Shown here one piece after another: positions 8,081 through 31,466 of a stretch of 64,000 nucleotides of DNA (position 1 is the stretch's first letter; every line of letters starts with the position of its first letter). Under the pieces are notes generated by a model. That model had not been told where the DNA came from. It searched no databases and was given only the letters and a program-made list of their open reading frames with translations. The stretch is taken from assembly GCA_964564915.1 (NCBI GenBank), contig CAZMCU010000003.1:2676-66675 (forward strand), read 5' to 3'. This stretch comes from an uncultured Demequinaceae bacterium (lineage in GTDB: Bacteria; Actinomycetota; Actinomycetes; Actinomycetales; Demequinaceae). The position numbers were made by a program, and so were the translations under genes.

Positions 8081-10252
<2,172 letters not shown>

Positions 10253-10311
10253 TCACCAACGCGGATACCCCACTAGTTCTATGATCGAGTCGTCCCCTCT
10301 CGGAGGTAGAT

Positions 10312-10512
10312 ATGCCGGACAACATTCCCTGGGCCGCCCTCGCGCCCGTGCTCGTGCTTCTAATGGCGTTTCTCGTGTATTGCTGGGTCGACATCGCGTA
10401 CCACCCCGTGCGGTACCTCCCCAAGTGGACATGGGCCCTCATCTGTTGCGTCATGATTCCGTTGGGGCCGATCGTCTACCTCGTCCTCGGCCGAGACCAC
10501 GGACAGGAGTAG
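10312..10512 (+). CDS. PLDc_N-type small two-TM membrane protein
   Basis: 66 aa with two hydrophobic helices flanking the conserved-looking RYLPKWTWALI...GPIVYLVLGR. GGAGG SD lies upstream. Confidence 0.6.
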   Translation: MPDNIPWAALAPVLVLLMAFLVYCWVDIAYHPVRYLPKWTWALICCVMIPLGPIVYLVLGRDHGQE

Positions 10513-10521
10513 TCCGCACCG

Positions 10522-11415
10522 GTGATCACGACCCACACCCTCACCAAGAGGTATGGTTCCACGACCGCTCTCGACGCGGTCGACCTCGTCGTACCCGACG
10601 GCTCGATCTATGGCCTCGTGGGGCCCAATGGGGCGGGGAAGACGACGCTCCTGGGGATTCTCGCCGGGCTACGCGCCCCAACGTCGGGCACCATCGCGAT
10701 CGACGCCGACTCTAGCGATGTGGCCGTCCTCTCCGATACCCCCCGCTTCGACCGCTGGCTCACGGGCTACGAGGTCGTGTCCCTCGCCCGAAACCTCACC
10801 GACCCCAACGGTTCGCCCGATCGCGTCGCGGAAGTCTTGGACGAGACGGGACTGCACAACGCCGCCAACCGACGGGTGGGCGGGTACTCGCGCGGGATGC
10901 TCCAACGGCTCGGTATCGCCGCGACGCTCGTCGGCAACCCTCGGCTCGTGCTCCTCGACGAACCCGCCTCCGCTCTCGACCCTCAGGGCCGCCGTGAAGT
11001 CCTCGACCTCATCGCCCGCCTGCGTGGCTCGGCTACCGTTCTGTTTTCCAGCCACATCCTCACGGACGTCCAGGAGGTGTGCGACACGGTCGGAATTTTA
11101 GGTAGCGGACGGCTGCTGTTCCAGGGACCGCTCCACCAGTTGCTCGTCGGTTCCGCCGTACCCCGCTACCACGTAAGACTCCGAAGCGATGCGACCCCGG
11201 TTGCCGTGGCGTTGCGCAAGGCACGTTGGGTGAAGGCCGTCGAGGTGTCGGACGGTGGGGGGCTCGTGATACAGGTGAAATCTCTCGCAGACGCCGAGAC
11301 CCACCTTCCGCAGGCGCTCGCCGACGCCAAGGCCGCGGTCGTATCGTTCGGGCCAGAGGAGGTCTCGCTGGAGCGGGCGTTCCTCGGTCTGACGGGTACG
11401 GGGGCAAAGCAATGA
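10522..11415 (+). CDS. ABC transporter ATP-binding protein (ABC-2/DrrA-like)
   Basis: Walker A GPNGAGKTT, signature YSRGMLQRLGIA, Walker B LVLLDEPASALD. GTG start. Confidence 0.9.
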   Translation: MITTHTLTKRYGSTTALDAVDLVVPDGSIYGLVGPNGAGKTTLLGILAGLRAPTSGTIAIDADSSDVAVLSDTPRFDRWLTGYEVVSLARNLTDPNGSPDRVAEVLDETGLHNAANRRVGGYSRGMLQRLGIAATLVGNPRLVLLDEPASALDPQGRREVLDLIARLRGSATVLFSSHILTDVQEVCDTVGILGSGRLLFQGPLHQLLVGSAVPRYHVRLRSDATPVAVALRKARWVKAVEVSDGGGLVIQVKSLADAETHLPQALADAKAAVVSFGPEEVSLERAFLGLTGTGAKQ

Positions 11416-12167
11416 CCCTGTGGCGGCTGGAGTGGACGCGACTCGTGCGCAGCAAGCGCTGGATCGCTCTCGTCGGCGTCTTCGTATTCTTCGGGCTGCT
11501 CGGCCCTCTCACGGCGCGATACCTCGCCCAGATCCTCCAGTTCGCTGGTACGGACTCGCAGGGCGTAACGATTACGTTCCCCGACCCCGTCCCCGCCGAC
11601 GGAATGGCCCAATACATCTCCAACGCGCTACAGATCGGCACCCTCGTCGTCGTCATCGTCGCCGCTGGTGCGCTCGCGTTCGACGCGATTCCCGAGATGG
11701 GGGTCTTCCTCCGTACCCGGGTTCCGAGCTTCTGGCGCATCCTCACCCCACGGCTCATCATCCCGTTCGTCGCTACGGCGGTGGCCTTTGTCGTCGGCAC
11801 GGTCGCGGCGTGGTACGAAACCTGGGTGCTCCTCGGCGCGCTCCCCGTTGGCGCCGTGCTGCTGGGGACCGCACTGGGCATTCTCTTCTTCGCCTTCATC
11901 ATCGCGGTCGTCGCCGCGGTTGCCCAGTGGGCGAGGAGCCTGCTGGCGACCGTCATGTGGTCGCTCGGCGTCTTTCTCGTCCTTCCGATCGTCGGGATCG
12001 TCGGCGTCCTCAAGCCCTGGATGCCCACGGTTTTAGGGAATGCCCTCACCGAACTCACGGCGGGGGCATCGGCGACCGGTTTTTGGCGGTCGACGGTCGT
12101 GGCCATCGTCGCGATTCCGGCCCTCATCTGGCTTGCCGAGCGGGGGGCACGACGCCGAGAGGCCTAG
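11412..12167 (+). CDS. ABC-2 type transporter permease
   Basis: The ATG at 11412 overlaps the ATPase stop (ATGA). About 6 hydrophobic segments. Function inferred from context. Confidence 0.7.
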   Translation: MTLWRLEWTRLVRSKRWIALVGVFVFFGLLGPLTARYLAQILQFAGTDSQGVTITFPDPVPADGMAQYISNALQIGTLVVVIVAAGALAFDAIPEMGVFLRTRVPSFWRILTPRLIIPFVATAVAFVVGTVAAWYETWVLLGALPVGAVLLGTALGILFFAFIIAVVAAVAQWARSLLATVMWSLGVFLVLPIVGIVGVLKPWMPTVLGNALTELTAGASATGFWRSTVVAIVAIPALIWLAERGARRREA

Positions 12168-12175
12168 CGCTCGTC

Positions 12176-12191
12176 ACCGGCCATTGCCGGT
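12176..12191 (+). terminator. weak hairpin after the ABC-2 permease
   Basis: ACCGGC-CATT-GCCGGT, followed by TCATTC. Confidence 0.25.
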
Positions 12192-12379
12192 CATTCACCG
12201 CTGGGGCACCACGGATTCTTCGATTTCGTGCTTCTGGCGTGCGTTTGACGGGTGGCGTGTGTCTCATTTCGCCTCTAATGTGACCCACCAATCACCGTTG
12301 CGCTTGCCCCCCCGCCAAGTCCGGGACAACGATGAAAGTGGAAATAAGAAACCGATCGACTGAGCGATCGGAGAGGACC

Positions 12380-13132
12380 ATGAATGAGACATCAGTCAAG
12401 GCCTGGACCGAGGAGTCCAGCGACAGCGAACTGATCGAGAGCGTCCGCGAAGGCGACTCCACGGCATTCAGCACTCTCTTCCACCGACACGTATCAGCGG
12501 CCCACCGCGTCGCGCTCGCGTACTCCCCTGTTCCCAGCGATGCCGATGACATCGTCTCGGAAGCCTTTGAACGGGTCCTCATCGCCCTTCAGAAGGGCCG
12601 CGGCCCCGACCACGCCTTCCGCGCGTACCTGTTCACCGTCGTGCGTCGGACCGGTGGCGAGTTCATTCGGCGCGCCAAGCAGGTGCGGCCGTACGAAGAC
12701 ATGGCCGAACACGACAAAGCCTTGGGCTTCTCCGACTCCAGTGGCGAGTCCACCCTGCATGAGTTCGAGCGGTCGACGATCGCGGACGCATTCCGATCCC
12801 TTCCCGAGCGCTGGCAGATGATCCTCTGGTACACCGAGATCGAGAAGATGACTCCGGCCGAGGTCGCGCCACGGCTTGGCCTTACCCCCAACGGGGCGGC
12901 TTCCCTCGGCTACCGAGCCCGCGAGGCCCTGCGCCAGGCCTACCTCCAACAGCACCTCGCCGAGGCGGAGGACCCCGCTTGCCTCTCGGTGTTCGACAAC
13001 CTCGCGGCCTACGTCCGAGGCTCCTTGACCCCCCGCGAGCGAGCGAAGGTGGCCGCCCACATCGCGACGTGCGCCAAGTGCGATTCCCTCATCTCCGAAC
13101 TTGAGGACGTCAACGGCGTCCTCCGAGGGTGA
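12380..13132 (+). CDS. ECF (sigma-70 family) sigma factor with C-terminal fused ZAS-type anti-sigma zinc motif
   Basis: Region 2-like DDIVSEAFERVLIAL...AYLFTVVRR and region 4 LPERWQMILWYTEIEKMTPAEVAPRLGLTPNGAASLGYRAREALR. These are followed by C-x25-H-x3-C-x2-C (Cys 12980, His 13058, Cys 13070, Cys 13079). I chose ATG 12380 because a GGAGAGGA SD precedes it; the track start at 12332 has no SD. Confidence 0.8.
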   Translation: MNETSVKAWTEESSDSELIESVREGDSTAFSTLFHRHVSAAHRVALAYSPVPSDADDIVSEAFERVLIALQKGRGPDHAFRAYLFTVVRRTGGEFIRRAKQVRPYEDMAEHDKALGFSDSSGESTLHEFERSTIADAFRSLPERWQMILWYTEIEKMTPAEVAPRLGLTPNGAASLGYRAREALRQAYLQQHLAEAEDPACLSVFDNLAAYVRGSLTPRERAKVAAHIATCAKCDSLISELEDVNGVLRG

Positions 13133-13240
13133 CGGCAAACGGCCCGGCGCGGGCGCGTCGGGCTCGATGGCGACACCAGGAGCACGCGGCTTCCTTACGC
13201 GGGCACCATCTACGTCGATCTGCCCCAAGAAGCGAGAAAG

Positions 13241-13257
13241 TCTAGACTTCCCCCATG
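13241..13257 (+). promoter_or_regulatory. TCTAGACT-N6-ATG: putative -10 (TAGACT) and leaderless start of hybrid kinase 1
   Basis: Identical 8-mer and identical spacing occur before kinase 2. No SD. Confidence 0.45.
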
Positions 13258-14859
13258 GGGACTTCAGCGAAAGACGGGGGACGCAAAGAAGGAGCGCGGC
13301 GGACTAGCGCGGGGAAACCGGCGGCACGCGTCAACTCCACGGCCTCCACGAATAGCAGCGCCACGGATGACAGCGCGGTCCTGGAAAGCCTCACCGACGG
13401 CGTCTTTGCGCTCGATCGCGAATTCCGATTCACCTACCTCAACGGCATCGCGGCGGCCTTCCTGGGGTGCACCCGCGACGAACTTCTGGGAACGTCTCTA
13501 CTGGACGAGTGCCCCGAGGTTCGGGACTCCGACCTCGGCCTCGCGCTCAGCCGCGTCCTCGAGACCGGGCTCGTCGAGCGGCTCCTGGCATGGTCCGGAC
13601 CTCAAACGAAATGGTTTGACGTCGGCGTGTGTGCTTCGCCCAACGGGCTCACGGTCATTCTCCACGACATCGCCGAGATCAAGTCCCTCTCGGAGCATTT
13701 CTCCGCCGCCCAGCGGCTGGAAATCCTGGGACAACTCACCGAAGGAATCGCGCACGAGTTCGGCAATCTCCTCACCGTCATCACGGGTGCCGTCGAATCC
13801 CTGGCCATCGAAACTCGCTTGGGTCCGACCGGCCGCGAAATGGTCGATGTCGTCAATGAAGCGACGACGCGCGGAGCCGACCTCATACGCCGCCTCCTGT
13901 CCTTCGCTGGGAGGCAGCCGCTCGCGCCTCAGCCCATCAACCTCACTCGACACGTCGGCGACCTTATCCCCCTCCTCCGGCGAACCCTGGGGGAAGCGAT
14001 CGAGGTGGCCTCGGACTTGACCCCCGGACTCCCCACCGTCAGCGTGGATCCCGGCCGACTCGAGGGCGCCATCCTCAACCTCGCGATCAACGCCCGCGAC
14101 GCGATGCCCAACGGCGGGATCCTCGAACTCGGGACGTCCCTGGCCGAGGTCGACCAAGAGGTGGAAGCCAGTCACGGCACCATCCAACCGGGAACCTACG
14201 CGGTCGTCACGGTCACCGATTCCGGCACGGGCGTCGCGCCGGAGAACCTGAGCCGGATGTTCGATCCGTTCTTCACCACCAAAAACGCCCATTGGGGTTC
14301 GGGGCTCGGTTTGGCAACCGTGTGGGGGTTTGCCCAGGAGTCCGGTGGATACCTCTCCGTTCACTCCGAACTTGGCCACGGCACGTCCATCCGCCTGTAC
14401 CTGCCCACCGTCCCCGTGGAGGTTGACCTGAATGCGGACAGTTGGATGGAGCCCACGCCCCAGTTCCGAGGCACCGGGCATGTGCTTCTCGTGGAGGACG
14501 ACGATCTCGTCCGCCGGTTCGCGACCGAGCAACTGATCGCGCGAGGGTTCAGCGTGACGGACGTCAACTCGGGACCGGAGGCGCTGAGGGCGCTCGACGG
14601 AATCGATAGGGTCGACCTGTTGTTCACCGACATCGTTCTGCCCAGCGGAACGACCGGTCGAGAATTGGCGGCGGAGGTGCAGGCGCAACGGCCCGGAACT
14701 CCTGTGCTCTACACCTCCGGCTACTCGGAGAGCGCCCTCCTGCACGACGGGAAACTCGATCCAGACGCGGTACTTCTCCCCAAGCCCTACTCCAGTCGGC
14801 AGCTGCTCGATGCCGTCCAGAGGCTTCTGTCCCCCGGTCCCCCCGCGTCGAGCCACTAG
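13255..14859 (+). CDS. cytoplasmic hybrid sensor histidine kinase (PAS-HisKA-HATPase-REC)
   Basis: PAS segment LESLTDGVFALDREFRFTYLN. H-box GIAHEFGNLLTVITG. N, G1 and G2 boxes NLAINARDAMP, DSGTGV, GSGLGL. Receiver domain VLLVEDDD...LLFTDIVLP...YTSGY...LPKPY. No TM segment. Confidence 0.9.
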   Translation: MGTSAKDGGRKEGARRTSAGKPAARVNSTASTNSSATDDSAVLESLTDGVFALDREFRFTYLNGIAAAFLGCTRDELLGTSLLDECPEVRDSDLGLALSRVLETGLVERLLAWSGPQTKWFDVGVCASPNGLTVILHDIAEIKSLSEHFSAAQRLEILGQLTEGIAHEFGNLLTVITGAVESLAIETRLGPTGREMVDVVNEATTRGADLIRRLLSFAGRQPLAPQPINLTRHVGDLIPLLRRTLGEAIEVASDLTPGLPTVSVDPGRLEGAILNLAINARDAMPNGGILELGTSLAEVDQEVEASHGTIQPGTYAVVTVTDSGTGVAPENLSRMFDPFFTTKNAHWGSGLGLATVWGFAQESGGYLSVHSELGHGTSIRLYLPTVPVEVDLNADSWMEPTPQFRGTGHVLLVEDDDLVRRFATEQLIARGFSVTDVNSGPEALRALDGIDRVDLLFTDIVLPSGTTGRELAAEVQAQRPGTPVLYTSGYSESALLHDGKLDPDAVLLPKPYSSRQLLDAVQRLLSPGPPASSH

Positions 14860-14925
14860 GCGGCGCGACCACCCGATACTCGGCTCCTCGTCCGTCTCTC
14901 CAACCTGCGCGAATCGACCGGCCAA

Positions 14926-14942
14926 TCTAGACTGGCGGAATG
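14926..14942 (+). promoter_or_regulatory. TCTAGACT-N6-ATG: putative -10 (TAGACT) and leaderless start of hybrid kinase 2
   Basis: Identical 8-mer and spacing to 13241-13257. Confidence 0.45.
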
Positions 14943-16931
14943 GGACCTCCGTCAGGGGGCAATGCGAAACCGGCGAAGAAGCGGGAATCGTCCCGATCGT
15001 CGAGCGGTGCTTCCGTGCCCGATGCGGCTCCCATCGTGCAACCCCGGAAGCCAGCGGATTTCGCGCGACTCGCCGAATCGATGCCCTTCATCGTGTGGAC
15101 GGCGACACCGGATGGCGCGGTCGACTACTTCAACTTGGCCTTCACCGAGTACACCGGACAATCTCCCGACTTGCTTCTGGCCGACGGGTGGCTCACGGTC
15201 CTCCATCCCGAGGATGTCCCGCTCGTCCTGGCCCGTTGGGAGTCTTCTCTCGCTTCGGGTAGTCCCTACGAGGTTGACTTCCGCATTCGGCGAGCGGACG
15301 GGGAGTATCGCTGGCACAGGGTGCAAGCCCGTGCGGAGACCAGCGAGAAGGGGAAGGTCGTCCGCTGGTGGGGAAGCGGAGTGGACATCCACGAACTCCA
15401 CCTCCTCCGTGCGCAGGCCGCCACCCTCGCGGAGGAACGCGAAGCCATCCTGGAAAGCATCGTCGACGGAGTGTTGACGTTGGATCGCGACTTCCGGTTC
15501 ACCTACCTCAATAGCAATGCCGAGAAGTTGACGGAGCGTACACGCGACGAACTCATTGGGAAGATCTTCTGGGATGCGTTTCCCGAGACTCGCGGCTCCG
15601 ACCTCCTCGAGATGTTCCAGCGCGTCGTCGAGACGAGGACGCCGGAGCGCATCGAAGACTACGGGGCACCGATGCGACGATGGTTCGAGGTAAGCGCTAA
15701 CCCGACACCGGACGGGCTCACCGTCTACCTTCGTGACATCACGCAAATGAAATCCCTCTCCGACCAACTTGCCATCGCGCAGCGGATGGAGGCGATGGGA
15801 CAACTGACCGGCGGTATCGCCCACGACTTCAACAACCTTCTGACGGTCATCATCGGAGGCACGGAGTCGCTTCTCGACGAGCCGAACCTGAGCGACCATT
15901 GCCGTGACACGCTCGATCTCTTCTCTCAGGCCACCTCGAAGGCGGCGGAACTGACCCATCGACTCCTCGCCTTCGCACGGAAGCAACCCCTGGCACCCCA
16001 GGCGATCAATGTCAGCCACTACGTCTCGGAGATCGTCCCCCTCCTTCGACGCACCCTGGGAGAGGGCGTTCGCATCGTGACCTCTCTCGCGGAGGACGTA
16101 CCCGCCGCCAACGTCGATCCGGGGCAATTCGAGAACGCCCTCTTGAACCTTGGCATCAACGCGAGGGACGCGATGCCGGAAGGAGGGACCCTCACCCTTG
16201 AGACCTATGCCGTGCACTTGGAGGAGCCCCAACCCGCCCTGCACCGGTTAGTCCCCCCGGGAAACTACGTCGCGACAACGGTGAGCGACACCGGGACGGG
16301 CATACCCGCGGAATTCCTGGGCAGGCTCTTCGACCCGTTCTTCACGACCAAGCCCGTCGGTCAGGGTTCTGGTCTGGGGTTGGCAATGGTGTACGGGTTC
16401 ATTCGGCAGTCGGAGGGTTACGTCGCGGTGTACTCGGAGGAAGGACGGGGCACGACCATCCGCCTCTACTTGCCCGTCGCATCAGACGAAACCATGACGT
16501 CGACGGTGGAACCGACCCAACCGACCCCTATCCATCAAGGAACGGGCCACATCCTGCTCGTCGAAGACGACGAACTCGTGCGCCACTTCACCGCCGCCCA
16601 TTTGATGGCACATGGGTACGAGGTGACCTCGGCTAGCTCGGGCCCCGAAGCGATCGCACTTCTCGATTCGATCGATCGCCTCGACCTCCTCCTCACCGAC
16701 GTGATCATGCCGGGCGGGATGACCGGCGCGCAACTCGCGGCGCGGATTCTTCAGCGGCGCCCCGGTACTCCCATCCTGTATTCGTCCGGATACACCGAAA
16801 ACGTCAACCTCGGCGACGGGCTTTCGGGCCGGGAGATCTCCTTCCTCTCCAAACCGTATTCGGGAACGCAGTTGATCGACGCCATCCAACGCCTCATCGC
16901 ACCACCGACCGCGGAGGAATCGGCAACGTGA
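14940..16931 (+). CDS. cytoplasmic hybrid sensor histidine kinase (PAS-PAS-HisKA-HATPase-REC), paralog of the preceding gene
   Basis: Two PAS segments (MPFIVWTATPDGAVDYFN...; ILESIVDGVLTLDRDFRFTYLN). H-box GIAHDFNNLLTVIIG. NLGINARDAMP, DTGTGI, GSGLGL. Receiver domain ILLVEDDE...LLLTDVIMP...YSSGY...LSKPY. Confidence 0.9.
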   Translation: MGPPSGGNAKPAKKRESSRSSSGASVPDAAPIVQPRKPADFARLAESMPFIVWTATPDGAVDYFNLAFTEYTGQSPDLLLADGWLTVLHPEDVPLVLARWESSLASGSPYEVDFRIRRADGEYRWHRVQARAETSEKGKVVRWWGSGVDIHELHLLRAQAATLAEEREAILESIVDGVLTLDRDFRFTYLNSNAEKLTERTRDELIGKIFWDAFPETRGSDLLEMFQRVVETRTPERIEDYGAPMRRWFEVSANPTPDGLTVYLRDITQMKSLSDQLAIAQRMEAMGQLTGGIAHDFNNLLTVIIGGTESLLDEPNLSDHCRDTLDLFSQATSKAAELTHRLLAFARKQPLAPQAINVSHYVSEIVPLLRRTLGEGVRIVTSLAEDVPAANVDPGQFENALLNLGINARDAMPEGGTLTLETYAVHLEEPQPALHRLVPPGNYVATTVSDTGTGIPAEFLGRLFDPFFTTKPVGQGSGLGLAMVYGFIRQSEGYVAVYSEEGRGTTIRLYLPVASDETMTSTVEPTQPTPIHQGTGHILLVEDDELVRHFTAAHLMAHGYEVTSASSGPEAIALLDSIDRLDLLLTDVIMPGGMTGAQLAARILQRRPGTPILYSSGYTENVNLGDGLSGREISFLSKPYSGTQLIDAIQRLIAPPTAEESAT

Positions 16932-18130
16932 AGGCCTCGGCCACGTCCGAGCGAGTCCTCATCATCGACGACGACCCGATGGTCGGGCGAACCACTCTCA
17001 CAACCGTCGAGACCCTCGGGCATGAGGGCCAATTGACGACCGACGCCCAGGACTTCATGGAGTTGTGCCAACGATGGCACCCCACCTTCGTCATCGTCGA
17101 TCTCGTCATGGAGAAAACCGACGGCCTGGAAATCCTTCGGATGCTCTCGGCGAAGGGGTGCACACCAACGGTCATCATCGCGAGCGGCCAAGGCAGCCGC
17201 GTCCTCAACGCGGCCAGACGCCTAGCGCAAGCCGAGAATCTCCCGTTCGGGGGGATCCTCTCCAAGCCGTACCGACGCTCCCAACTCGCGGAATTGCTGT
17301 CGAGGCCCCCCGCGCAACTCGGTGACGACTCCTCGACCGAGGTCACGGCTCCTCGTTCGTGGACGGACGCGGAGTTCGAAGAAGAGTTCCGCGACGCCCT
17401 CGGCAGCGGGGCGGTATCCGTCGTCTTCCAGCCCAAGGTCAGTTGCGCGGACGGCCGCGTGGTGGGGTACGAGGCCCTCGCCCGCTGGGCGCATCCCGAT
17501 CGGGGCAACATCGTTCCCGACGACTTCGTCCCGAAGGCCGAGAAGGCGGGCCTCGCTGGCCTGTTGAGCGACGTTGTCCTCCGCCAGTCGCTGGGGTGGT
17601 TCGGCGATCACCTCGAACGGAACGGAAAGCGCCTGTCCATCAACATCTCCGCAACGGAGGTTGCCGAGTCCGGTCTCGACGAACGCTTACTGCAGGCATG
17701 CCGAATCGCCGGAGTGCCAACCCAACAGGTGATCATCGAAGTGACGGAAACGAGCGCGATGGAGGACCCCGTCCTCTCCCTCCAGTTCTTAACGCGTCTT
17801 CGGCTTCAGGGTTTCGAGGTGTCCCTCGACGACTTTGGTACGGGGTACTCCTCGATGGTTCAGTTGGCGAAGATGCCGTTCAGCGAGATCAAGGTGGACC
17901 GCTCGTTCGTCAAGAACGCCGCTACATCCCAGGAGTCCGCGATCGTCATCCGCTCGATCATCGATTTGGGTCACGCCTTGGAGATGACGTGCACCGCCGA
18001 GGGCGTGGAAAGCGCGGCCGTTATGACCCTTCTCCACAAATGGGGGTGCGATCACGCGCAGGGGTACCACATCGCGCGTCCCATGACCACGGACGACCTT
18101 GGAATCTGGCTCGAAACCGCACCCGATTAG
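16928..18130 (+). CDS. response regulator with EAL domain (predicted c-di-GMP phosphodiesterase)
   Basis: REC domain VLIIDDDP...FVIVDLVM...ILSKPY. The EAL catalytic set is intact: YEALARW, RLSINIS, IIEVTET, DDFGTGYSS, IKVDRSF, AEGVE, QGY. The GTG at 16928 overlaps the kinase stop (GTGA). Confidence 0.9.
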   Translation: MKASATSERVLIIDDDPMVGRTTLTTVETLGHEGQLTTDAQDFMELCQRWHPTFVIVDLVMEKTDGLEILRMLSAKGCTPTVIIASGQGSRVLNAARRLAQAENLPFGGILSKPYRRSQLAELLSRPPAQLGDDSSTEVTAPRSWTDAEFEEEFRDALGSGAVSVVFQPKVSCADGRVVGYEALARWAHPDRGNIVPDDFVPKAEKAGLAGLLSDVVLRQSLGWFGDHLERNGKRLSINISATEVAESGLDERLLQACRIAGVPTQQVIIEVTETSAMEDPVLSLQFLTRLRLQGFEVSLDDFGTGYSSMVQLAKMPFSEIKVDRSFVKNAATSQESAIVIRSIIDLGHALEMTCTAEGVESAAVMTLLHKWGCDHAQGYHIARPMTTDDLGIWLETAPD

Positions 18131-19224
18131 GCTCTCACCGCGGCCGTCGCCTGCCCGAGCACCCGCGTCCCGGCGTACACCACGAGCGACTGGCCCGGTG
18201 CGACCGCACGCATCGGCTCGTCGAGTTCGACGAGCATCCTGTCCCCCGCTACCGTGACGCGACCAGCGGCCGGCGTCCCGTGGGCGCGGACCTGGACGTG
18301 ACACCGGGTCGGTTCCTCGGCGGGGATGTCGGGGGCGAGCCACACCACTCCGTCACCCGCTAACGTGGTCACCGAAAGCCGCCGTTCCGGCCCCACCTCG
18401 ACCGTGTTGGTCCCGACCCGCACGCCGGTAACGTACCGGGGTTCGCCATCGGTTGCGGGTCGCGGCAAGCGCAATCCCTTGCGTTGCCCGACGGTGAACG
18501 CGAACGCGCCGGCGTGCGTCCCGACCACATCCCCCGCCTCGTCCACGATGTCGCCCGGTTGCTCCCCCAGGCGTTCGAGGAGGAAGGCCGTGGCGTCGCC
18601 ATCGGAGATGAAGCAGATGTCGAGCGAATCGGCCTTCGTCGAGACGCCGAGCCCGCGAGCCGCTGCCTCCGCACGAACGTCGCCCTTGGATTCCGCTCCA
18701 CCGAGCGGAAAGATCGTGCGGGAGAGTCGTTGGAGACCAACCGCGGCGAGGACGTACGACTGGTCCTTCGCATCGACGGTGGCTCGGTGCAGTTCGATCG
18801 CACCAACGCTATCCTCGACGCCCCGGTGTTTGGTGACTCCTCCGCCCGCCGCCTCGTGCGGCCGCGCGATCCTCGCGTAGTGACCCGTGCAGACCGCGTC
18901 GAAGCCTCGCGACAGGGCGCGATCGAGAAGGGCCCCAAACTTGACCCGTTGGTTGCACCGCACACAGGGGTTGGGGGTACGGCCCGCGCGGTACTCGGAC
19001 AGAAACTCGTCCACCACGATTCGTTCGAAATCCTCCCGCATGTCCCAGACCTCGTACGGGATGCCCAGGACGTCGGCAACACGGCGGGCGTCGTCGTCCT
19101 CCACTCCCGGCGCGTTCGTGGTCAGCGCGAGACGCACGCCCATCACGGCATGTCCGGCGTCGATGGCGCGCGCGGCGGCAACGGCGGAGTCGACGCCGCC
19201 CGAGAGCGCCGCGATCACCTGCAT
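18127..19224 (-). CDS. mnmA: tRNA-specific 2-thiouridylase
   Basis: PP-loop ALSGGVDSAVAA and RTPNPCVRCNQRVKF. ATG at 19224; the longer ORF is upstream read-through. Confidence 0.92.
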   Translation of the reverse strand: MQVIAALSGGVDSAVAAARAIDAGHAVMGVRLALTTNAPGVEDDDARRVADVLGIPYEVWDMREDFERIVVDEFLSEYRAGRTPNPCVRCNQRVKFGALLDRALSRGFDAVCTGHYARIARPHEAAGGGVTKHRGVEDSVGAIELHRATVDAKDQSYVLAAVGLQRLSRTIFPLGGAESKGDVRAEAAARGLGVSTKADSLDICFISDGDATAFLLERLGEQPGDIVDEAGDVVGTHAGAFAFTVGQRKGLRLPRPATDGEPRYVTGVRVGTNTVEVGPERRLSVTTLAGDGVVWLAPDIPAEEPTRCHVQVRAHGTPAAGRVTVAGDRMLVELDEPMRAVAPGQSLVVYAGTRVLGQATAAVRA

Positions 19225-19304
19225 GCTATCGACCTGTGTCGCTTGGCCATCCCGCGATTCTACGACGGGCTGACGAGAGACGATTTCGCCGTGAGGCCCG
19301 CGCG

Positions 19305-19321
19305 TAGACTCTCGAAGCATG
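19305..19321 (+). promoter_or_regulatory. putative -10 (TAGACT) 8 nt before the ATG of the DUF1003 gene
   Basis: TAnnnT hexamer with no SD. Confidence 0.35.
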
Positions 19322-19756
19322 ACGATCGCAAGCGCACGGCGAATCCCCAAGAAGAACTGGCACACCAAGCACCAAGAAGGGTTGACACGCGGAGAACGCG
19401 CCGCCGACCACATGCGCAACTCCATGGGCAGTTGGGGGTTCGTCGGGGGGTTCCTGGTCTTCATGGCACTGTGGGCTGTCATCAACACCGCGACGAGCGG
19501 CTGGGACCCGTACCCGTACATCCTCCTCAACCTCTTCCTCAGCATGCTCGCCGGGCTCCAAGGCGCGATCCTCCTCATCGCCGCGAAACGCCAGGACGCG
19601 ATCGCCGCCGCCCTCGCCGAGCACGATTATCAAACCAACATCGCCGCGAAGGAAGACATCGAGGCGTTGCTCAAGATCAACCACCGGCAGCTCGAGATGA
19701 TCTTGGAGTTGCGCGCGACCGTCGAGCGGCTCGGCCCGGACGGCGCCAAACCGTAA
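19319..19756 (+). CDS. DUF1003 family membrane protein
   Basis: Matches the DUF1003 pattern as I recall it: GSWGFVGGFLVFMALWAVINT...WDPYPYILLNLFLSMLAGLQGAILLIAAKRQ. Apparently leaderless (TAGACT, 8 nt, ATG). Confidence 0.65.
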   Translation: MTIASARRIPKKNWHTKHQEGLTRGERAADHMRNSMGSWGFVGGFLVFMALWAVINTATSGWDPYPYILLNLFLSMLAGLQGAILLIAAKRQDAIAAALAEHDYQTNIAAKEDIEALLKINHRQLEMILELRATVERLGPDGAKP

Positions 19757-19778
19757 GCGTGCTTGGCCCGAACCGGGT

Positions 19779-20426
19779 CTAGGTCTCCCGCAGTTCGGGG
19801 TCGGGATCGACCGTGACGGCGACCGAGAACGCCCCCGTCTTGACCGCACCCTGGAGGGTGTAGTCCGAGATCACCACACCCGTCGTCGACACCCGTGTGC
19901 TCTCCAGGTGGAGGCTCGCGGCCTGCGCCATTCCCTCGAACATGCGCTTCCCCCGGCCGAGAAGCACGGGGAAGGTCCAGATGCGGTACTCGTCCACGAG
20001 GCCCTGCTCCTGGAGGGTTTGGGCGAGGCCGGGGCAACCATGGACCTGCAGTTCGGGGCCATCGCCCGCCTTGAGGGCACGCACGGCCGCGGCAACATCT
20101 CCCTCGAGCGGAACGGTGTTGGCCCACGATGTGGGGATCGGCCGATGGGTCGCGACGTACTTGGTTGCGGCCGTGAACTTCTGGGCAACGGGATCGTCGA
20201 GCGCGAAGGGATAGTGCGACGCGAAGATGTCGTAGGTTCCGCGACCGAGGAGGAGGTCGAAGCCTCCCTCCATGAACGATGCCGAGGCCTGGCTCATCAT
20301 GTCGTCCCACAAGGCGACGGACCAACCACCGAGGGCGAACCCTCCGGAGCGGTCCTCGTTCGGACCGCCGGGTGCCTGCACCACGCCATCGAGAGACGTA
20401 AACACCGTGACAATCAGTCTGCGCAT
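19779..20426 (-). CDS. dihydrofolate reductase family protein (RibD C-terminal domain type)
   Basis: MRRLIVTVFTSLDGVVQAPGGPNEDRSGGF...LLLGRGTYDIF...DEYRIWTFPVLLGRGKRMF. Only the last 215 codons of the 918-aa ORF are taken as real. Confidence 0.75.
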   Translation of the reverse strand: MRRLIVTVFTSLDGVVQAPGGPNEDRSGGFALGGWSVALWDDMMSQASASFMEGGFDLLLGRGTYDIFASHYPFALDDPVAQKFTAATKYVATHRPIPTSWANTVPLEGDVAAAVRALKAGDGPELQVHGCPGLAQTLQEQGLVDEYRIWTFPVLLGRGKRMFEGMAQAASLHLESTRVSTTGVVISDYTLQGAVKTGAFSVAVTVDPDPELRET

Positions 20427-22700: not shown

Positions 22701-23405
22701 CTAATTCCCGAGGTCGTTCGCCTGATCGATCAGGTCATTCTGGGTTCCCGTCATCCCGTCGTTGCCAAGGTTGTCGAGGGTGCCGTTGAGCGAACCGTTG
22801 GGGTCGAGGTTCCCCGCGATGACCATGCCCTCGATGTCTCCCACGTCAACAACGCCCGCGGTGTAAGCCGACTCCTGACCCACCGGGATGAACGGCATCG
22901 AGATGTTGCCGTTCCTGTCGGACTGGGCCACTGCCCACCCGCCATCGACGAGGACCCACTGGCCGGATGCGGGATCCCGCTTGAGGAAGAGCACAAGGTT
23001 GTCCGCACCGCGAAGCGCGTCGGCGGCGAGGAACGCGCCGTGAACGGAACCGAGGTTCACCTCGAACGACGTGCCGGCGTTTCCCCGGATGTACTTGTGG
23101 ACCTGGAAGGTCCCGATGAGGGTGGAGGCGGTCATGTCCAGCGCGCCCGCTTGCGGCAGGAGTTTCTGCCCATCGGTGAAACTACCCGTCACGATCACCT
23201 CGGCTGGTGTGACTCCCACTCCCCCGAGCACGTACTCGCGGATGCTCGTCGGAACCGACACGGGAAAAGCCGCGGGGAAGTCGGACTGCCGCTCCGCCGC
23301 AAGCCGGTTGAACTGCTCAATCTCTTCGCCACTCGGGCCGGTCGAGCACCCGCTGAACAACCACGCGGACACCACCACCAGCAGGCCTGTCGCCACTCGC
23401 TTCAT
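22701..23405 (-). CDS. lipoprotein of unknown function
   Basis: Signal peptide plus lipobox (VVVSAWLFSGC). GAGGGAGG SD. Asn/Gly/Asp-rich C-terminus. I recognise no family. Confidence 0.6.
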   Translation of the reverse strand: MKRVATGLLVVVSAWLFSGCSTGPSGEEIEQFNRLAAERQSDFPAAFPVSVPTSIREYVLGGVGVTPAEVIVTGSFTDGQKLLPQAGALDMTASTLIGTFQVHKYIRGNAGTSFEVNLGSVHGAFLAADALRGADNLVLFLKRDPASGQWVLVDGGWAVAQSDRNGNISMPFIPVGQESAYTAGVVDVGDIEGMVIAGNLDPNGSLNGTLDNLGNDGMTGTQNDLIDQANDLGN

Positions 23406-23461
23406 CGTCGCCTCCCTCGGACCTCCACGAGGTCCTCCGCGGTCCTACAAGAACCAGGCTA

Positions 23462-27591: not shown

Positions 27592-29776
27592 CAGCATCGA
27601 TCCGGGCCTCCTCTCCGAGGTTGCCTCCGGGCTTCACGACCAACCCCATGACATCCTCGGCGCCCACGTGGAAGCGGATGGAGTCGTGGTGCGGGTCCTC
27701 CGTCCCCACGCGTCCTCCGTTTCCATCATGACCCTCGACGGCACCTTCCCGGCGAAGCGCGATGCGAGCGGAATCTGGATGGCGTGCGTCCCCGGCGACG
27801 ACGCACCCGATTACCGTGTCGTCGTCACGTATCCGTCGGAGGGCGATGATTCCACCCCCGTCACGGAGGATGACCCCTATCGCTTCCTTCCCAGCCTGGG
27901 GGACCTCGATCGCCACCTCATCATGGAGGGACGACACGAGAGGCTCTGGGAGGTTCTCGGCGCGAACGTCAAGCACTACCCCTCGGTCTTGGGCGAGGTG
28001 GATGGCACCGCCTTCGCGGTGTGGGCACCCAACGCGCGCATCGTTCGTGTTGTCGGTGACTTCAACCACTGGCAAGGTGTCGGCCACACCATGCGTGCCC
28101 TCGGCTCCACGGGGTTGTGGGAACTCTTCATCCCCGGCGTCGTCGCGGGAGAGAGATACAAATTCGACGTCCTCGGTCGTGACGGGCACTGGCAATTGAA
28201 GGCCGATCCGATGGCGAAGGCCACGGAGGTGCCGTCACAGACGGCCTCCGTCGTCGCGGAGTCCACCCACACGTGGGAAGACGACGCGTGGATGGAAGCG
28301 CGCGAATCCCGGCACCCGGAGAGCGAAGCGATGAGCGTGTACGAGGTCCACCTCGGCTCGTGGAAACAGGGACTCTCCTATCGGGATCTCGCGGACGAAC
28401 TCATCCCCTACGTGGCGGAGACGGGATTCACCCACGTCGAGTTCATGCCCGTCACGGAGCACCCGTTCCCTCCCTCGTGGGGGTACCAGGTCACCTCCTA
28501 CTACGCCCCCACGGCCCGCTTCGGTGGACCCGACGATTTCCGCTACCTCGTCGATCGCCTGCACCAGGCGGGCATCGGCGTACTTCTCGACTGGGTCCCC
28601 GGGCACTTCCCCAAGGACGAGTGGGCGCTCGCTCGTTTCGATGGGACGCCCCTGTACGAGCATCCCGACCCGCTACGCGGCGAACAACCGGACTGGGGAA
28701 CCCTCGTGTTCGACTTCGCCCGCCCCGAGGTACGCAACTTCCTCGTCGCGAGCGCGGTCTTCTGGCTCAAGGAGTACCACGCGGACGGATTGCGCGTTGA
28801 CGCCGTCGCCTCGATGCTCTACCTCGACTACTCCCGCAAGGCGGGCCAGTGGCGCCCCAACATCCATGGAGGACGCGAGAACCTCGACGCGGTTGCCTTC
28901 CTCGAAGAAGCGACGTCCACAACCGCGCGGTTGTGCCCCGGCACGATCATGGTCGCGGAGGAATCTACGGCATGGCCGGGGGTGACGACTCCGAGGAGCG
29001 CGGGCGGACTCGGGTTCTCCTTCAAATGGAACATGGGGTGGATGAACGACACCCTGAAATACCTCGCGGAACAACCCGAACACCGTAGCCACCACCACGC
29101 GCTCGTGACGTTCTCCATGATGTACGCCTTCTCCGAACACTTCCTGTTGCCCTTGAGCCACGACGAGGTGGTCCACGGGAAGGGATCCCTGTGGACGAGG
29201 ATGCCGGGGGACGAGTGGCAGAAGGCCGCCGGCGTTCGGGCGCTTCTCACGTACCAATGGACGCACCCCGGAAAGAAGTTGCTCTTCATGGGCGGGGAGT
29301 TCGCCCAGATTCGCGAGTGGGCGGAGGACCGTTCCCTCGATTGGGACATTCTCGACAAGCCTTTCCACGGTGGCGTGCACCTCTTGGTCCGCGACCTCAA
29401 CGCGCTGTACCACTCCACCCCCGCGTTATGGGAACTCGATTCCGATCCCGCTGGCTTCGAGTGGATCGATTCGGAGGACGCGGCTCATTGCGTTCTCGCC
29501 TACCTGCGCAAGGACCGCGATGGGCACCCGCTCGCAGTCGCGTGCAACTTCTCGACCGATGCGCACGAGGACTACCGGTTGGGGTTTCCCTCCGCCGGGC
29601 CGTGGGACGAAATCCTCAACTCGGATTCGGAGTTCTACGGAGGATCGGGGGTGGGCAACCTCGGACGGGTGATCGCGGACGAGATACCCCAAGGACGGTG
29701 GGCGAACTCCGCCTCGGTCCGAGTCCCCCCACTCGGGGCCGTGATCTTCCGACCAGCCGACGAGGAGTCTCCTTAA
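27578..29776 (+). CDS. glgB: 1,4-alpha-glucan branching enzyme
   Basis: GRHERLWEVLGA...FAVWAPNA...WGYQVTSYYAPT.RFG.PDDFRYLVD.LHQAGIGV..DWVP.HFPKD, GLRVDAVASMLYLDY, PLSHDEVVHGKGS. The GTG start overlaps the glgE end; an alternative GTG lies at 27584. Confidence 0.95.
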   Translation: MPVANSIDPGLLSEVASGLHDQPHDILGAHVEADGVVVRVLRPHASSVSIMTLDGTFPAKRDASGIWMACVPGDDAPDYRVVVTYPSEGDDSTPVTEDDPYRFLPSLGDLDRHLIMEGRHERLWEVLGANVKHYPSVLGEVDGTAFAVWAPNARIVRVVGDFNHWQGVGHTMRALGSTGLWELFIPGVVAGERYKFDVLGRDGHWQLKADPMAKATEVPSQTASVVAESTHTWEDDAWMEARESRHPESEAMSVYEVHLGSWKQGLSYRDLADELIPYVAETGFTHVEFMPVTEHPFPPSWGYQVTSYYAPTARFGGPDDFRYLVDRLHQAGIGVLLDWVPGHFPKDEWALARFDGTPLYEHPDPLRGEQPDWGTLVFDFARPEVRNFLVASAVFWLKEYHADGLRVDAVASMLYLDYSRKAGQWRPNIHGGRENLDAVAFLEEATSTTARLCPGTIMVAEESTAWPGVTTPRSAGGLGFSFKWNMGWMNDTLKYLAEQPEHRSHHHALVTFSMMYAFSEHFLLPLSHDEVVHGKGSLWTRMPGDEWQKAAGVRALLTYQWTHPGKKLLFMGGEFAQIREWAEDRSLDWDILDKPFHGGVHLLVRDLNALYHSTPALWELDSDPAGFEWIDSEDAAHCVLAYLRKDRDGHPLAVACNFSTDAHEDYRLGFPSAGPWDEILNSDSEFYGGSGVGNLGRVIADEIPQGRWANSASVRVPPLGAVIFRPADEESP

Positions 29777-30777: not shown

Positions 30778-31466
30778 GGCTTCTTCGCCTTCCGCTTGGG
30801 CTGGGCATCCACCTTGGCCTTCTTCGCCTCGCTCGTCTTCTTCACGCTGTCGTGCCCCTTCCGTTCCCTCTCCCGCGTGGTAGGCAGCTGAGACTCGACG
30901 AGTCCGGCAGCGAGGATGACGAGTCCCACGACGATCAGGGAGAGCCCCCCGGCGATGACGGGCCACGCCCACCCATTGCCACGGTCGCGCGAGAGGGTGA
31001 GCGTGACGTCTCCCAGCGACGACCCGGATTCGGACACGAGGACGATCACCACGCCCGGTTCGACATCGGCGGGGTCGATCGTCGTCTCCCCCGTAGCGTG
31101 TCTCGAATCCCGCCACAGGTCGCCATCGCCATCGGCGACGTAGCTCCCGCCAGCGTTAACGTCGTCGACCTGGACGTCGTCCCACGACACGAGACCCCTG
31201 ACGACGCTCGTGTGATCATCCTCGGCCCACGCGAACACGTCGACCGGTCGTGCCGTCCGGACGTCGAACGCCCCCGGCGCCGTGACGGAAATCGACAGGA
31301 GTCCATCGAAGGCAACCACCTCGGGAGGGATGACCGCGATGGGTGCTTCAAGGTCTCCTACGGCGTTAACGGTTGCGGCGGGACGGAGCAGAATGGCGAC
31401 TCCGCCGACGGCGCACAGAGCCAATCCGGCAAGGCCAACAAGGGGTGCCAACCACTTTCGCTTCAC
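30774..31466 (-). CDS. membrane protein with TM segments at both ends, an acidic extracytoplasmic domain and a Lys-rich C-terminal tail
   Basis: N-terminal TM LAPLVGLAGLALCAVGGVAILL and C-terminal TM WPVIAGGLSLIVVGLVILAAGLV, then ...KKTSEAKKAKVDAQPKRKAKKP. Confidence 0.55.
   Translation of the reverse strand: MKRKWLAPLVGLAGLALCAVGGVAILLRPAATVNAVGDLEAPIAVIPPEVVAFDGLLSISVTAPGAFDVRTARPVDVFAWAEDDHTSVVRGLVSWDDVQVDDVNAGGSYVADGDGDLWRDSRHATGETTIDPADVEPGVVIVLVSESGSSLGDVTLTLSRDRGNGWAWPVIAGGLSLIVVGLVILAAGLVESQLPTTRERERKGHDSVKKTSEAKKAKVDAQPKRKAKKP

What the first reader, a model, noticed from the sequence alone, without database searches (positions are those of the whole stretch)
10312..18130. Plus-strand accessory signalling island between ligA and mnmA: sigma-ZAS fusion, two soluble PAS hybrid kinases and a REC-EAL output
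Seven co-directional plus-strand genes sit between two minus-strand housekeeping genes, ligA and mnmA. In M. tuberculosis, from memory, both lie in the Rv3009c-Rv3025c segment. After a PLDc_N/ABC-2 module come an ECF sigma factor carrying its own ZAS motif and two paralogous TM-less PAS-HisKA-HATPase-REC kinases. The last gene is a REC-EAL protein whose start overlaps the kinase 2 stop (GTGA). Every catalytic residue set I checked is intact: H-boxes, N/G1/G2 boxes, receiver Asp and Lys, and the EAL metal and base residues. There is no Hpt protein, no GGDEF cyclase and no DNA-binding response regulator in the window. The wiring (hybrid kinase REC to REC-EAL, and any link to the sigma factor) cannot be explained by a standard two-component scheme. 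The H-box context GIAHDFNNLLTVI is the form I associate with proteobacterial hybrid kinases, which hints at horizontal origin. A cytoplasmic PAS and ZAS sensing module feeding c-di-GMP degradation would be an unusual system for this lineage.
Basis: partly seen in the sequence, partly recalled or inferred. Interest (0 to 1): 0.7.

Follow-up and report, generated by a model that had tools for sequence, protein, structure and literature searches.

The report
Kinase-controlled c-di-GMP phosphodiesterase cassette in Demequinaceae
The seven genes are real, but they are not one system: a portable kinase plus c-di-GMP-degrading regulator pair has landed next to an unrelated transporter and sigma-factor block, and the pair is common in this bacterial family, so the region is fairly ordinary.

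Summary
Seven plus-strand genes lie between ligA and mnmA, with the reported domains, no membrane segments in the signalling proteins, a GTGA overlap and intact catalytic residues. No Hpt, GGDEF or DNA-binding response regulator was found among about 57 window ORFs.

The organism is an uncultured Demequinaceae (Micrococcales). The "island" is composite.
- **Resident block:** PLDc_N, ABC ATPase, permease and the sigma-ZAS gene. One relative has this block between ligA and mnmA with no kinase or EAL gene.
- **Mobile unit:** a hybrid kinase plus REC-EAL gene pair. It sits at three or more different places in Demequinaceae and also occurs in Gammaproteobacteria, Acidobacteriota and Gemmatimonadota.
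- **HK1:** the extra kinase is found only in this species. Four relatives with the same context have one kinase at that position.

The REC-EAL protein is RocR-like. The kinases are CckA-type, with a "FATGUY" fused receiver. Each kinase gene has its own TANNNT hexamer 5-6 nt before the start codon, which suggests leaderless transcripts.

The most likely wiring is direct His-to-Asp transfer to the REC-EAL protein, with the fused receiver as a second acceptor. A relay through an unlinked phosphotransferase is not excluded.

The sigma factor is a truncated, membrane-free relative of ECF52-type sigma/anti-sigma fusions. This is the least ordinary element.

The parts
10312..10512 (+). Small membrane protein with a PLDc_N domain. 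It is the first gene of the resident transporter block and is not part of the signalling cassette.
   Evidence: PF13396, E 2.5e-7. Conserved with the ABC genes in L085, L090, L092 and L096. A TANNNT-like hexamer upstream is conserved in relatives.
10522..11415 (+). ABC transporter ATPase, DrrA-like.
   Evidence: ABC_tran E 2.4e-25. TIGR01188 drrA scores 166 bits, below its cutoff. It is 86% identical to its L092 counterpart.
11412..12167 (+). Polytopic permease of the ABC module. Its start overlaps the ATPase stop.
   Evidence: 77 hydrophobic 19-residue windows. Only a sub-threshold ABC2_membrane_2 match (E 0.018). Conserved at 251 aa in relatives.
12380..13132 (+). ECF sigma factor with a fused C-terminal ZAS motif (C201...H227-x3-C231-x2-C234). 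It is a membrane-free, truncated ECF52-like form.
   Evidence: Pfam r2, r4_2 and zf-HC2 hits. The four ligand residues are invariant in alignment A2, and the protein stops exactly where relatives start a membrane helix. All 80 metagenomic relatives carry long tails.
13241..13248 (+). TCTAGACT, containing a -10-like TAGACT hexamer 6 nt before the HK1 ATG. Inferred promoter of a leaderless transcript.
   Evidence: One of only two TCTAGA sites in the 64 kb window. Homologous hexamers precede kinase starts in L085, L087, L092, L093 and L096.
13255..14859 (+). HK1: a soluble PAS-HisKA-HATPase_c-REC hybrid kinase. It is found only in this species and lacks the first PAS domain.
   Evidence: Pfam. 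72-74% identical to the single kinase of the closest relative L092, with NJ bootstrap 100. Absent from L085, L092 and L095.
14926..14933 (+). Second TCTAGACT, 6 nt before the HK2 ATG. Inferred promoter of the HK2/REC-EAL transcript.
14940..16931 (+). HK2: a soluble hybrid kinase with two PAS domains, a CckA-type H-box and a FATGUY-type fused receiver.
   Evidence: Pfam. NCBIfam CckA and PRK13557 models score below their cutoffs. LYSSGY motif. Its best homologue in another organism is only 60% identical.
16928..18130 (+). RocR-like REC-EAL response regulator, predicted to be an active c-di-GMP phosphodiesterase.
   Evidence: EAL E 1e-65. Full-length match to the RocR structure 3sy8, E 1.9e-46. 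D58 and ten catalytic residues are conserved in the 120 nearest homologues. GTGA overlap with HK2.
8081..10231 (-). ligA, the left housekeeping flank.
   Evidence: Pfam DNA_ligase_aden, E 7e-89.
18127..19230 (-). mnmA, the right housekeeping flank. It is convergent with REC-EAL, and the two stop codons overlap (TTAG).
   Evidence: tRNA_Me_trans E 7.1e-57. Sequence at the junction.

Best explanation
The region is a juxtaposition of independent transcription units, not one system.

1. **Resident block.** PLDc_N, ABC ATPase and permease form one operon. The membrane-free ECF sigma/ZAS gene follows it.
2. **Portable cassette.** A two-component cassette has been inserted between the sigma gene and mnmA. 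It consists of a cytoplasmic PAS-sensing, CckA-type hybrid histidine kinase (HK2) translationally coupled to a RocR-like REC-EAL response regulator.
3. **Extra kinase.** HK1 is a second kinase of the same family, present only in this species. It has its own copy of the promoter and has lost the first PAS domain.

Proposed mechanism (inferred, not shown). Intracellular signals sensed by the PAS domains control autophosphorylation of the H-box histidine. The phosphoryl group then passes directly to Asp58 of the REC-EAL protein and changes its hydrolysis of c-di-GMP to pGpG. The kinase's own FATGUY-type receiver acts as a second, reversible acceptor that buffers or gates this flow. HK1 and HK2 would let two different inputs converge on one phosphodiesterase.

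Shown here: the domain content, the intact residues, the co-inheritance of kinase and REC-EAL, and their separability from the sigma and ABC genes. Inferred: the direction and route of phosphotransfer, the effect of phosphorylation on enzyme activity, and leaderless transcription.
For: Kinase and REC-EAL are a unit:
- The kinase/REC-EAL adjacency is found in every Demequinaceae locus read: L085, L087, L088/L089, L092, L093, L095 and L096. In most of them the genes overlap by 4 nt.
- The same pair occurs in Gammaproteobacteria, Acidobacteriota, Gemmatimonadota and another Actinomycetota MAG.
- At least 35 of the 120 REC-EAL clusters have a longest contig of exactly the same length as that of an HK2 homologue, which suggests a shared contig.

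The cassette is separable from the sigma and ABC genes:
- L090 has the sigma and ABC block without the cassette.
- The cassette sits at three different genomic sites.

The components look functional:
- REC-EAL matches RocR over its full length.
- All receiver and EAL catalytic residues are conserved in the 120 nearest homologues.

Own promoters:
- A conserved TANNNT hexamer lies 5-6 nt before the kinase start codons.

No phosphotransferase nearby:
- No Hpt or HPTransfase was found in the window.
- None appears among the Pfam-annotated genes within 8-10 kb in L085, L087, L088, L092, L093 or L096.
- Only 14.5% of surveyed Actinobacteria species have any HPt domain (PMC4558063).
- SgmT, a soluble Hpt-less hybrid kinase, phosphorylates DigR directly (PMC3509222).
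Against: - The fused receiver belongs to the CckA class with the FATGUY motif. That class is associated with intermediary receivers that pass phosphate on to DHp-like or Hpt partners (PMC9981736).
- The phospho-Asp of the fused receiver is conserved in 120 of 120 homologues. The receiver is therefore clearly used, which would also fit a true relay.
- Only 64 kb of this genome was visible, so an unlinked Hpt or ChpT-like protein cannot be excluded.
- No biochemical data exist for any member of this cassette family.
- The origin of HK2 is unresolved. It could be a fast-evolving tandem duplicate or a copy acquired from another Demequinaceae lineage.
Confidence: 0.5

Rival explanations
1. A true multistep phosphorelay. 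The phosphoryl group goes from the His to the kinase's own FATGUY receiver, then to an unlinked histidine phosphotransferase (Hpt or ChpT-like), and finally to the REC-EAL protein, as in CckA-ChpT-CtrA/CpdR.
For: - The fused receivers carry the CckA-class FxSGY/FATGUY motif (LYSSGY in HK2, LYTSGY in HK1). This class is tied to intermediary receivers (PMC9981736).
- The fused receiver's phospho-Asp, Ser, Tyr and Lys are conserved in about 120 of 120 homologues.
- The best NCBIfam matches are CckA models, and CpdR for the receiver.
Against: - No Hpt or HPTransfase is present in the 64 kb window or within 8-10 kb of the cassette in six other genomes.
- The cassette relocates as a two-gene unit, which suggests it is self-sufficient.
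- HPt domains are found in only 14.5% of surveyed Actinobacteria species.
- One homologue (L005) has Ala at the receiver Asp but keeps the adjacent REC-EAL gene.
Confidence: 0.28
2. The sigma-ZAS protein, both kinases and the REC-EAL protein form one integrated five-gene sensing system, horizontally acquired, in which redox sensing by the ZAS motif and PAS sensing jointly feed c-di-GMP degradation.
For: - The order sigma-kinase-REC-EAL-mnmA is conserved in five genomes of one Demequinaceae sub-clade: the window, L085, L092, L095 and L096.
- HK2 has low GC3 (z = -3.0).
Against: - L090 keeps the sigma gene next to mnmA with no kinase or EAL gene.
- Three other Demequinaceae lineages have the pair without the sigma gene nearby.
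- None of the 80 sigma relatives from metagenomes has these neighbours.
- The kinase genes carry housekeeping-type -10 hexamers, not ECF-type promoters.
- The sigma gene is separated from HK1 by a 122-bp gap.
Confidence: 0.08
3. The kinases and the REC-EAL protein are neighbours but not phosphotransfer partners. The fused receiver would be the terminal acceptor, or the REC-EAL receiver would be fed by another kinase or by acetyl phosphate.
For: - Helix alpha-1 of the REC-EAL receiver differs markedly from that of the fused receivers.
- From memory: some REC-EAL enzymes, such as VieA, are reported to be active independently of phosphorylation.
Against: - Gene adjacency, and in most loci a 4-nt overlap, are conserved across phyla and at different genomic sites.
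- REC-EAL Asp58 and its partner residues are invariant.
Confidence: 0.1

Closest known systems
RocR / PvrR (Pseudomonas aeruginosa REC-EAL response regulators of the Roc and Pvr systems)
   Same: - Same two-domain architecture and length. The alignment to the RocR structure 3sy8 runs over the full length (residues 9-387 against 5-381, E 1.9e-46).
- The best NCBIfam model is PvrR.
- The full set of EAL catalytic and loop-6 residues is present.
- The protein is controlled by a hybrid-type sensor kinase encoded nearby.
   Different: - It scores 234 bits against the PvrR equivalog cutoff of 580.
- RocS1 and PvrS are, from my own knowledge, membrane-bound unorthodox kinases with an Hpt domain that also feed a DNA-binding regulator. 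Here the kinases are soluble and lack Hpt, and no DNA-binding regulator is present.
CckA-type hybrid histidine kinases (Caulobacter and Brucella CckA; PRK13557 LOV-kinase-like proteins)
   Same: - H-box GGIAHDFNNLLTVI, with conserved N, G1, F and G2 boxes.
- A C-terminal receiver with the FxSGY 'FATGUY' motif (PMC9981736).
- Tandem PAS sensors.
   Different: - No membrane anchor.
- No ChpT, CtrA or CpdR partners in view.
- Far below the equivalog cutoffs (356 bits against 1000).
- The partner gene is an EAL phosphodiesterase.
SgmT/DigR of Myxococcus xanthus (and VirA/VirG, from my own knowledge)
   Same: A soluble hybrid kinase without Hpt that transfers phosphate directly to a separate response regulator, while its own conserved receiver is dispensable or regulatory (PMC3509222). 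This is the functional precedent for the proposed wiring.
   Different: Different sensor domain (GAF) and output (DNA binding). SgmT and DigR are orphans rather than an operon. There is no close sequence relationship.
ECF52-type (also ECF48 and ECF53) actinobacterial sigma factors with a fused zinc-finger anti-sigma extension, such as SCO4117
   Same: The sigma-2 and sigma-4 regions are followed in the same polypeptide by an invariant C...HxxxCxxC motif. The protein is 44-66% identical to many long-form proteins from Cellulomonas, Pseudonocardiaceae and metagenomes (PMC8999054).
   Different: The Demequinaceae form stops directly before the membrane helix. It therefore lacks the transmembrane and extracytoplasmic parts on which the proposed proteolytic activation depends. 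The exact ECF group was not assigned.

Membership tests
REC-EAL response regulator / class I c-di-GMP phosphodiesterase (RocR-like) | Receiver domain with an acidic pair, phospho-Asp, Ser/Thr and Lys | tested here: met
   D14, D15, D58, S86 and K113 are invariant in alignment A1 and in 118-121 of 121 aligned sequences.
REC-EAL response regulator / class I c-di-GMP phosphodiesterase (RocR-like) | EAL domain with the complete metal, base and substrate residue set and the DFG(T/A)GYSS loop 6 | tested here: met
   E182, R186, N239, E271, E274, D301, D302, K322, E358 and Q378 are present in 121 of 121 sequences. The Pfam EAL model is covered at positions 2-236 of 236, E 1e-65. The mapping to RocR residue numbers is from memory.
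REC-EAL response regulator / class I c-di-GMP phosphodiesterase (RocR-like) | Curated equivalog score (NCBIfam PvrR, NF052596) | tested here: not met
   234.3 bits against a cutoff of 580. It has the same architecture but is not an ortholog of PvrR.
REC-EAL response regulator / class I c-di-GMP phosphodiesterase (RocR-like) | Hydrolysis of c-di-GMP to pGpG, modulated by phosphorylation | not testable with these tools
   This needs an enzyme assay with and without BeF3- or the cognate kinase.
Roc/Pvr-type branched system | Unorthodox sensor kinase that carries an Hpt domain | tested here: not met
   Pfam finds no Hpt in HK1 or HK2 or anywhere else in the window.
Roc/Pvr-type branched system | Companion DNA-binding response regulator | tested here: not met
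   None was found among about 57 window ORFs. None is annotated next to the cassette in relatives.
CckA-type hybrid kinase | HisKA H-box of the HDFNNLL type plus a C-terminal receiver with the FATGUY (FxSGY) motif | tested here: met
   HK2 has GIAHDFNNLLTVI and LYSSGY. HK1 has GIAHEFGNLLTVI and LYTSGY. The motif Tyr is conserved in 119 of 120 homologues. The definition is from PMC9981736.
CckA-type hybrid kinase | Curated equivalog score, membrane anchoring and a ChpT phosphotransferase partner | tested here: not met
   356 and 340 bits against cutoffs of 1000. No hydrophobic segment. No HPTransfase hit in the window.
ECF52-like sigma factor with fused anti-sigma extension | ECF sigma-2 and sigma-4 regions followed by a ZAS zinc-finger motif in one polypeptide | tested here: met
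   Pfam r2, r4_2 and zf-HC2 hits. C201, H227, C231 and C234 are invariant in 18 sequences.
ECF52-like sigma factor with fused anti-sigma extension | Transmembrane helix and extracytoplasmic (Pro-rich or carbohydrate-binding) extension after the ZAS motif | tested here: not met
   The protein ends at residue 250, where long forms begin the helix IAPLVLG.... Its maximum hydropathy is 0.71. All 80 metagenomic relatives have tails (200-1600 aa where the contig is not cut).
ECF52-like sigma factor with fused anti-sigma extension | Assignment by the ECF-classification group models | not tested
   The group HMMs are not available here, and SCO4117 itself was not compared.
ABC-2 type transporter | ABC ATPase plus a permease that matches an ABC-2 membrane model | tested here: inconclusive
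   The ATPase match is clear. The permease matches ABC2_membrane_2 only at E 0.018, 14.8 bits against 27.2.

The most novel reading that the evidence does not exclude
Two unexcluded readings would go beyond an ordinary two-component system.

(a) The widespread cassette of a hybrid kinase without Hpt plus a REC-EAL gene could be a self-contained relay. The CckA-class FATGUY receiver would hand the phosphoryl group back to a DHp domain, either its own or that of the paralogue HK1 or HK2. That DHp domain would then act as the phosphotransferase towards the REC-EAL protein. This would be a relay without any Hpt or ChpT protein.

(b) The 250-residue Demequinaceae sigma factor could be a one-polypeptide cytoplasmic thiol/zinc switch. 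It would be an ECF52-type sigma/anti-sigma fusion that has shed its membrane part and now auto-inhibits in cis through the retained CHCC motif.
Probability: 0.2. Interest if true: 0.55.

Novelty: new member of a known kind. Interest (0 to 1): 0.3.

Why it matters
- The kinase/REC-EAL cassette adds an uncharacterised but widespread family to the known sensor-controlled c-di-GMP phosphodiesterases. It extends such systems to Micrococcales, where c-di-GMP signalling is little studied.
- The cassette is simple and soluble, so it would be a convenient test case for an open question: what the conserved FATGUY-type receivers of Hpt-less hybrid kinases do.
- The truncated sigma/ZAS protein could show how a membrane-tethered ECF sigma factor is converted into a cytoplasmic one.
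- None of this overturns current understanding. The practical result is that the "island" should be annotated as separate units, not as one system.

Tried and rejected
- **Genome-contig scan with the REC-EAL alignment.** The Demequina genomes were not returned. The scan was still useful because it showed the cassette in other phyla.
- **Recent tandem duplication as the whole story for HK1 and HK2.** HK1 groups with the single kinase of L092 (bootstrap 100). HK2 groups weakly with L085 (69.5%) and has no close ortholog. The identical TCTAGACT element upstream of both genes still favours a local duplication with asymmetric divergence, but this is unresolved.
- **AlphaFold model of the sigma/ZAS protein.** pLDDT was 73 but pTM only 0.41, so the packing of the ZAS helices against sigma-2 and sigma-4 cannot be trusted. 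No fold search was run.
- **Consensus promoter and terminator scan.** It found no sigma-70 hits, and the number of terminator-like sites matched chance.
- **Rfam scan of 9500-20000.** Nothing was found, including no c-di-GMP riboswitch.
- **Composition as evidence of recent transfer.** Only HK2 (z = -3.0) and HK1 (z = -2.0) have lowered GC3. REC-EAL (-1.1) and sigma (-0.7) are normal.
- **Covariation between DHp and receiver residues.** This was considered and not run. About 40 related pairs are too few and too confounded by phylogeny to tell direct transfer from a relay.

Full report
**Observation.** ORF listing and profile searches confirm seven plus-strand genes between ligA (8081-10231, minus) and mnmA (18127-19230, minus).
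- PLDc_N protein, 10312-10512
- ABC ATPase, 10522-11415
- polytopic permease, 11412-12167
- ECF sigma factor with a zf-HC2 motif, 12380-13132
- HK1, 13255-14859 (PAS-HisKA-HATPase_c-REC)
- HK2, 14940-16931 (two PAS domains, then the same kinase core)
- REC-EAL protein, 16928-18130

The HK2 stop and the REC-EAL GTG start overlap as GTGA, behind a GGAGGA ribosome-binding site. HK1 and HK2 align without gaps at 51% identity over 498 residues. Neither they, the sigma factor nor REC-EAL has a hydrophobic segment. The only weak point is the permease: its ABC-2 match is below threshold. Pfam scans of about 57 ORFs over the whole window found no Hpt, HPTransfase, GGDEF or DNA-binding response regulator. 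Rfam found nothing in 9500-20000.

**Organism.** Exact copies of the proteins occur only on short metagenomic contigs. The named relatives of REC-EAL, the sigma factor and HK2 are Demequina species and Demequinaceae MAGs. The lineage is therefore Micrococcales, not Mycobacterium. The ligA and mnmA analogy with M. tuberculosis is only a loose parallel in gene order.

**The region is composite.** I read the neighbourhoods of relatives and compared them with the window.
- The closest relative, L092, has flanking proteins 80-94% identical to the window. Its order is ligA-PLDc_N-ABC-permease-sigma/ZAS, then one kinase, REC-EAL and mnmA.
- L085 and L095 have the same order with one kinase.
- L096 has a second kinase, but at a different place, between ligA and PLDc_N.
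- L090 has ligA-HSP20-PLDc_N-ABC-permease-sigma directly against mnmA, with no kinase and no EAL gene.
- D. aestuarii (L087) and two other lineages (L088/L089, L093) carry the kinase/REC-EAL pair at two other chromosomal sites. No sigma or ABC genes lie within 10 kb.

The transporter and sigma genes are therefore the resident block. The kinase/REC-EAL pair is a separable two-gene cassette. HK1 is an addition found only in this species.

**The cassette is a conserved unit.**
- In every Demequinaceae locus the REC-EAL gene follows the kinase directly, in most with a 4-nt overlap.
- Among loci fetched from other phyla, full-length REC-EAL genes that are 40% or more identical to the query nearly all have an HK2-like kinase next to them. 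Examples are L005 (Actinomycetota), L006 (Acidobacteriaceae), and L007 and L009 (Gammaproteobacteria). More distant examples are L011, L028 and L059.
- At least 35 of the 120 REC-EAL clusters have a longest contig of exactly the same length as that of one of the 120 best HK2 homologues. This points to shared contigs, although it is indirect.
- REC-EAL aligns over its full length with the RocR structure 3sy8 (E 1.9e-46).
- The receiver residues (D14, D15, D58, S86, K113) and ten EAL catalytic residues are conserved in essentially all of the 120 nearest homologues. The same holds for the kinases' His, H+1 and H+4 residues, the G1 and G2 boxes, and the fused receiver's Asp, Ser, Tyr and Lys.

**The two kinases.**
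- HK1 is 72-74% identical to L092's single kinase and groups with it at bootstrap 100.
- HK2 is only 54% identical to that kinase. Its best homologue in any other organism is 60% identical, and it groups weakly with L085 (69.5%).
- HK1 lacks the first PAS domain.
- Both genes are preceded by the octamer TCTAGACT, 6 nt before ATGGG. These are the only two TCTAGA sites in the 64 kb window.
- Relatives have CCTAGACT (L092, L096), CCTAAACT (L085), TAAGGT (L087) and TAACGT (L093), each 5-6 nt before the start codon.

I read this element as a TANNNT -10 hexamer driving leaderless transcripts. That is an inference from the motif, its position and its conservation. On this reading HK1 and HK2/REC-EAL are separate units with housekeeping-type promoters, and nothing suggests control by the neighbouring ECF sigma factor. 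A local duplication with asymmetric divergence best explains the shared T-variant of the octamer. Acquisition of HK2 from another Demequinaceae lineage is not excluded.

**Wiring.** The kinases are CckA-like. Their best NCBIfam models are PRK13557 and CckA, both far below cutoff. The fused receiver carries the FxSGY "FATGUY" motif (LYSSGY, LYTSGY). Brüderlin et al. associate this motif with intermediary receivers that exchange phosphate with DHp or Hpt partners (PMC9981736). This feature, together with the invariant receiver Asp, keeps a true relay alive as a rival.

Several points argue against a relay.
- No phosphotransferase gene appears in the window or beside the cassette in six other genomes.
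- The cassette moves as a pair.
- HPt domains occur in only 14.5% of surveyed actinobacterial species (PMC4558063).
- The soluble Hpt-less hybrid kinase SgmT phosphorylates DigR directly, with its own receiver dispensable (PMC3509222).

I therefore favour direct His-to-Asp58 transfer, with the fused receiver as a second reversible acceptor (about 0.5). A relay through an unlinked phosphotransferase comes second (about 0.28).

**The sigma factor.** C201, H227, C231 and C234 are invariant across short and long relatives. The long forms, from Cellulomonas, Pseudonocardiaceae and others, continue straight into a membrane helix and a long extension. The Demequinaceae protein ends just before that helix. 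Of the 34 best database hits, 24 are 248-252 residues long. All 80 relatives fetched from JGI metagenomes, at 44-66% identity, are long forms.

This matches the described ECF48, ECF52 and ECF53 sigma factors with fused zinc-finger anti-sigma parts, which are thought to be released by proteolysis (PMC8999054; PMC5826349). The difference is that the membrane part is missing here. A cis-acting cytoplasmic zinc/thiol switch is a reasonable guess, but it is untested. The AlphaFold model was too uncertain in its domain packing to help.

**Horizontal origin and composition.** The cassette's patchy distribution across phyla and its multiple insertion sites are compatible with past transfer. In this lineage, however, the arrangement is shared with four relatives. 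GC3 is mildly low for HK2 (0.774, z = -3.0) and HK1 (0.796, z = -2.0), and normal for REC-EAL and the sigma gene. The reference is 0.839 ± 0.022 for 26 other genes. No mobile-element genes flank the region.

**Verdict.** The integrated five-gene interpretation is only partly supported. What is present is a new, uncharacterised member of a known kind: a sensor kinase controlling a REC-EAL phosphodiesterase. It sits beside an unrelated transporter operon and an unusual truncated ECF sigma/ZAS fusion. Interest is modest at 0.3. The open questions are the role of the FATGUY receiver in an Hpt-less setting and the function of the membrane-free sigma/ZAS protein.

Noticed in passing
window 49125-49245 (minus-strand rho gene, about 47860-49700): The rho gene carries a 15-nt tandem repeat that encodes about eight [10 protein letters not shown] units in its N-terminal insertion. 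This is a low-complexity Gly/Asn/Gln-rich tract.
   Followed up: partly
window 13241-13248 and 14926-14933: TCTAGA occurs only twice in the 64 kb window. Both sites are part of TCTAGACT, 6 nt upstream of the HK1 and HK2 start codons. Related hexamers precede the orthologous kinases in five other genomes.
   Followed up: yes
window about 12235-12345 (upstream of the sigma gene): A non-coding block (GTGGCGTGTGTCTC..TTTC, TGTGAC, CTTG, ACGATGAAAGTGGAA) is conserved with L085, L090 and L092. Indels that are not multiples of three argue against it being coding. It may be the sigma gene's own promoter or leader.
   Followed up: partly
window 18127-18130: REC-EAL and mnmA are convergent, and their stop codons overlap (TTAG), which leaves no room for a terminator. 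The same junction is found in L085 and L092.
   Followed up: partly
L005:7587-9983: The kinase next to the REC-EAL gene in an uncultured Actinomycetota MAG has Ala in place of the receiver's phospho-accepting Asp. All 120 nearest HK2 homologues keep Asp.
   Followed up: partly
L096:3207-5042: A related Demequinaceae genome has recruited a second hybrid-kinase paralogue to the same ligA-mnmA interval, but between ligA and PLDc_N. Extra kinases have therefore been added independently at this locus.
   Followed up: partly
L097-L176: Every sigma/ZAS relative recovered from JGI metagenomes is a long form; where the contig is not cut, 200-1600 residues follow the zinc motif. None has ABC, kinase or EAL neighbours.
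   Followed up: yes
window 22701-23444 (-), 29773-31155 (-), 62637-63035 (-): These ORFs have good coding statistics but no Pfam match.
   Followed up: no
window 10231-10311 and homologous spacers in L085, L090, L092: A conserved CTAG(G/A)ATC(G/A)AG element, containing a TAGGAT/TAGAAT-like hexamer, lies upstream of the PLDc_N gene. It suggests the transporter operon has its own promoter.
   Followed up: partly
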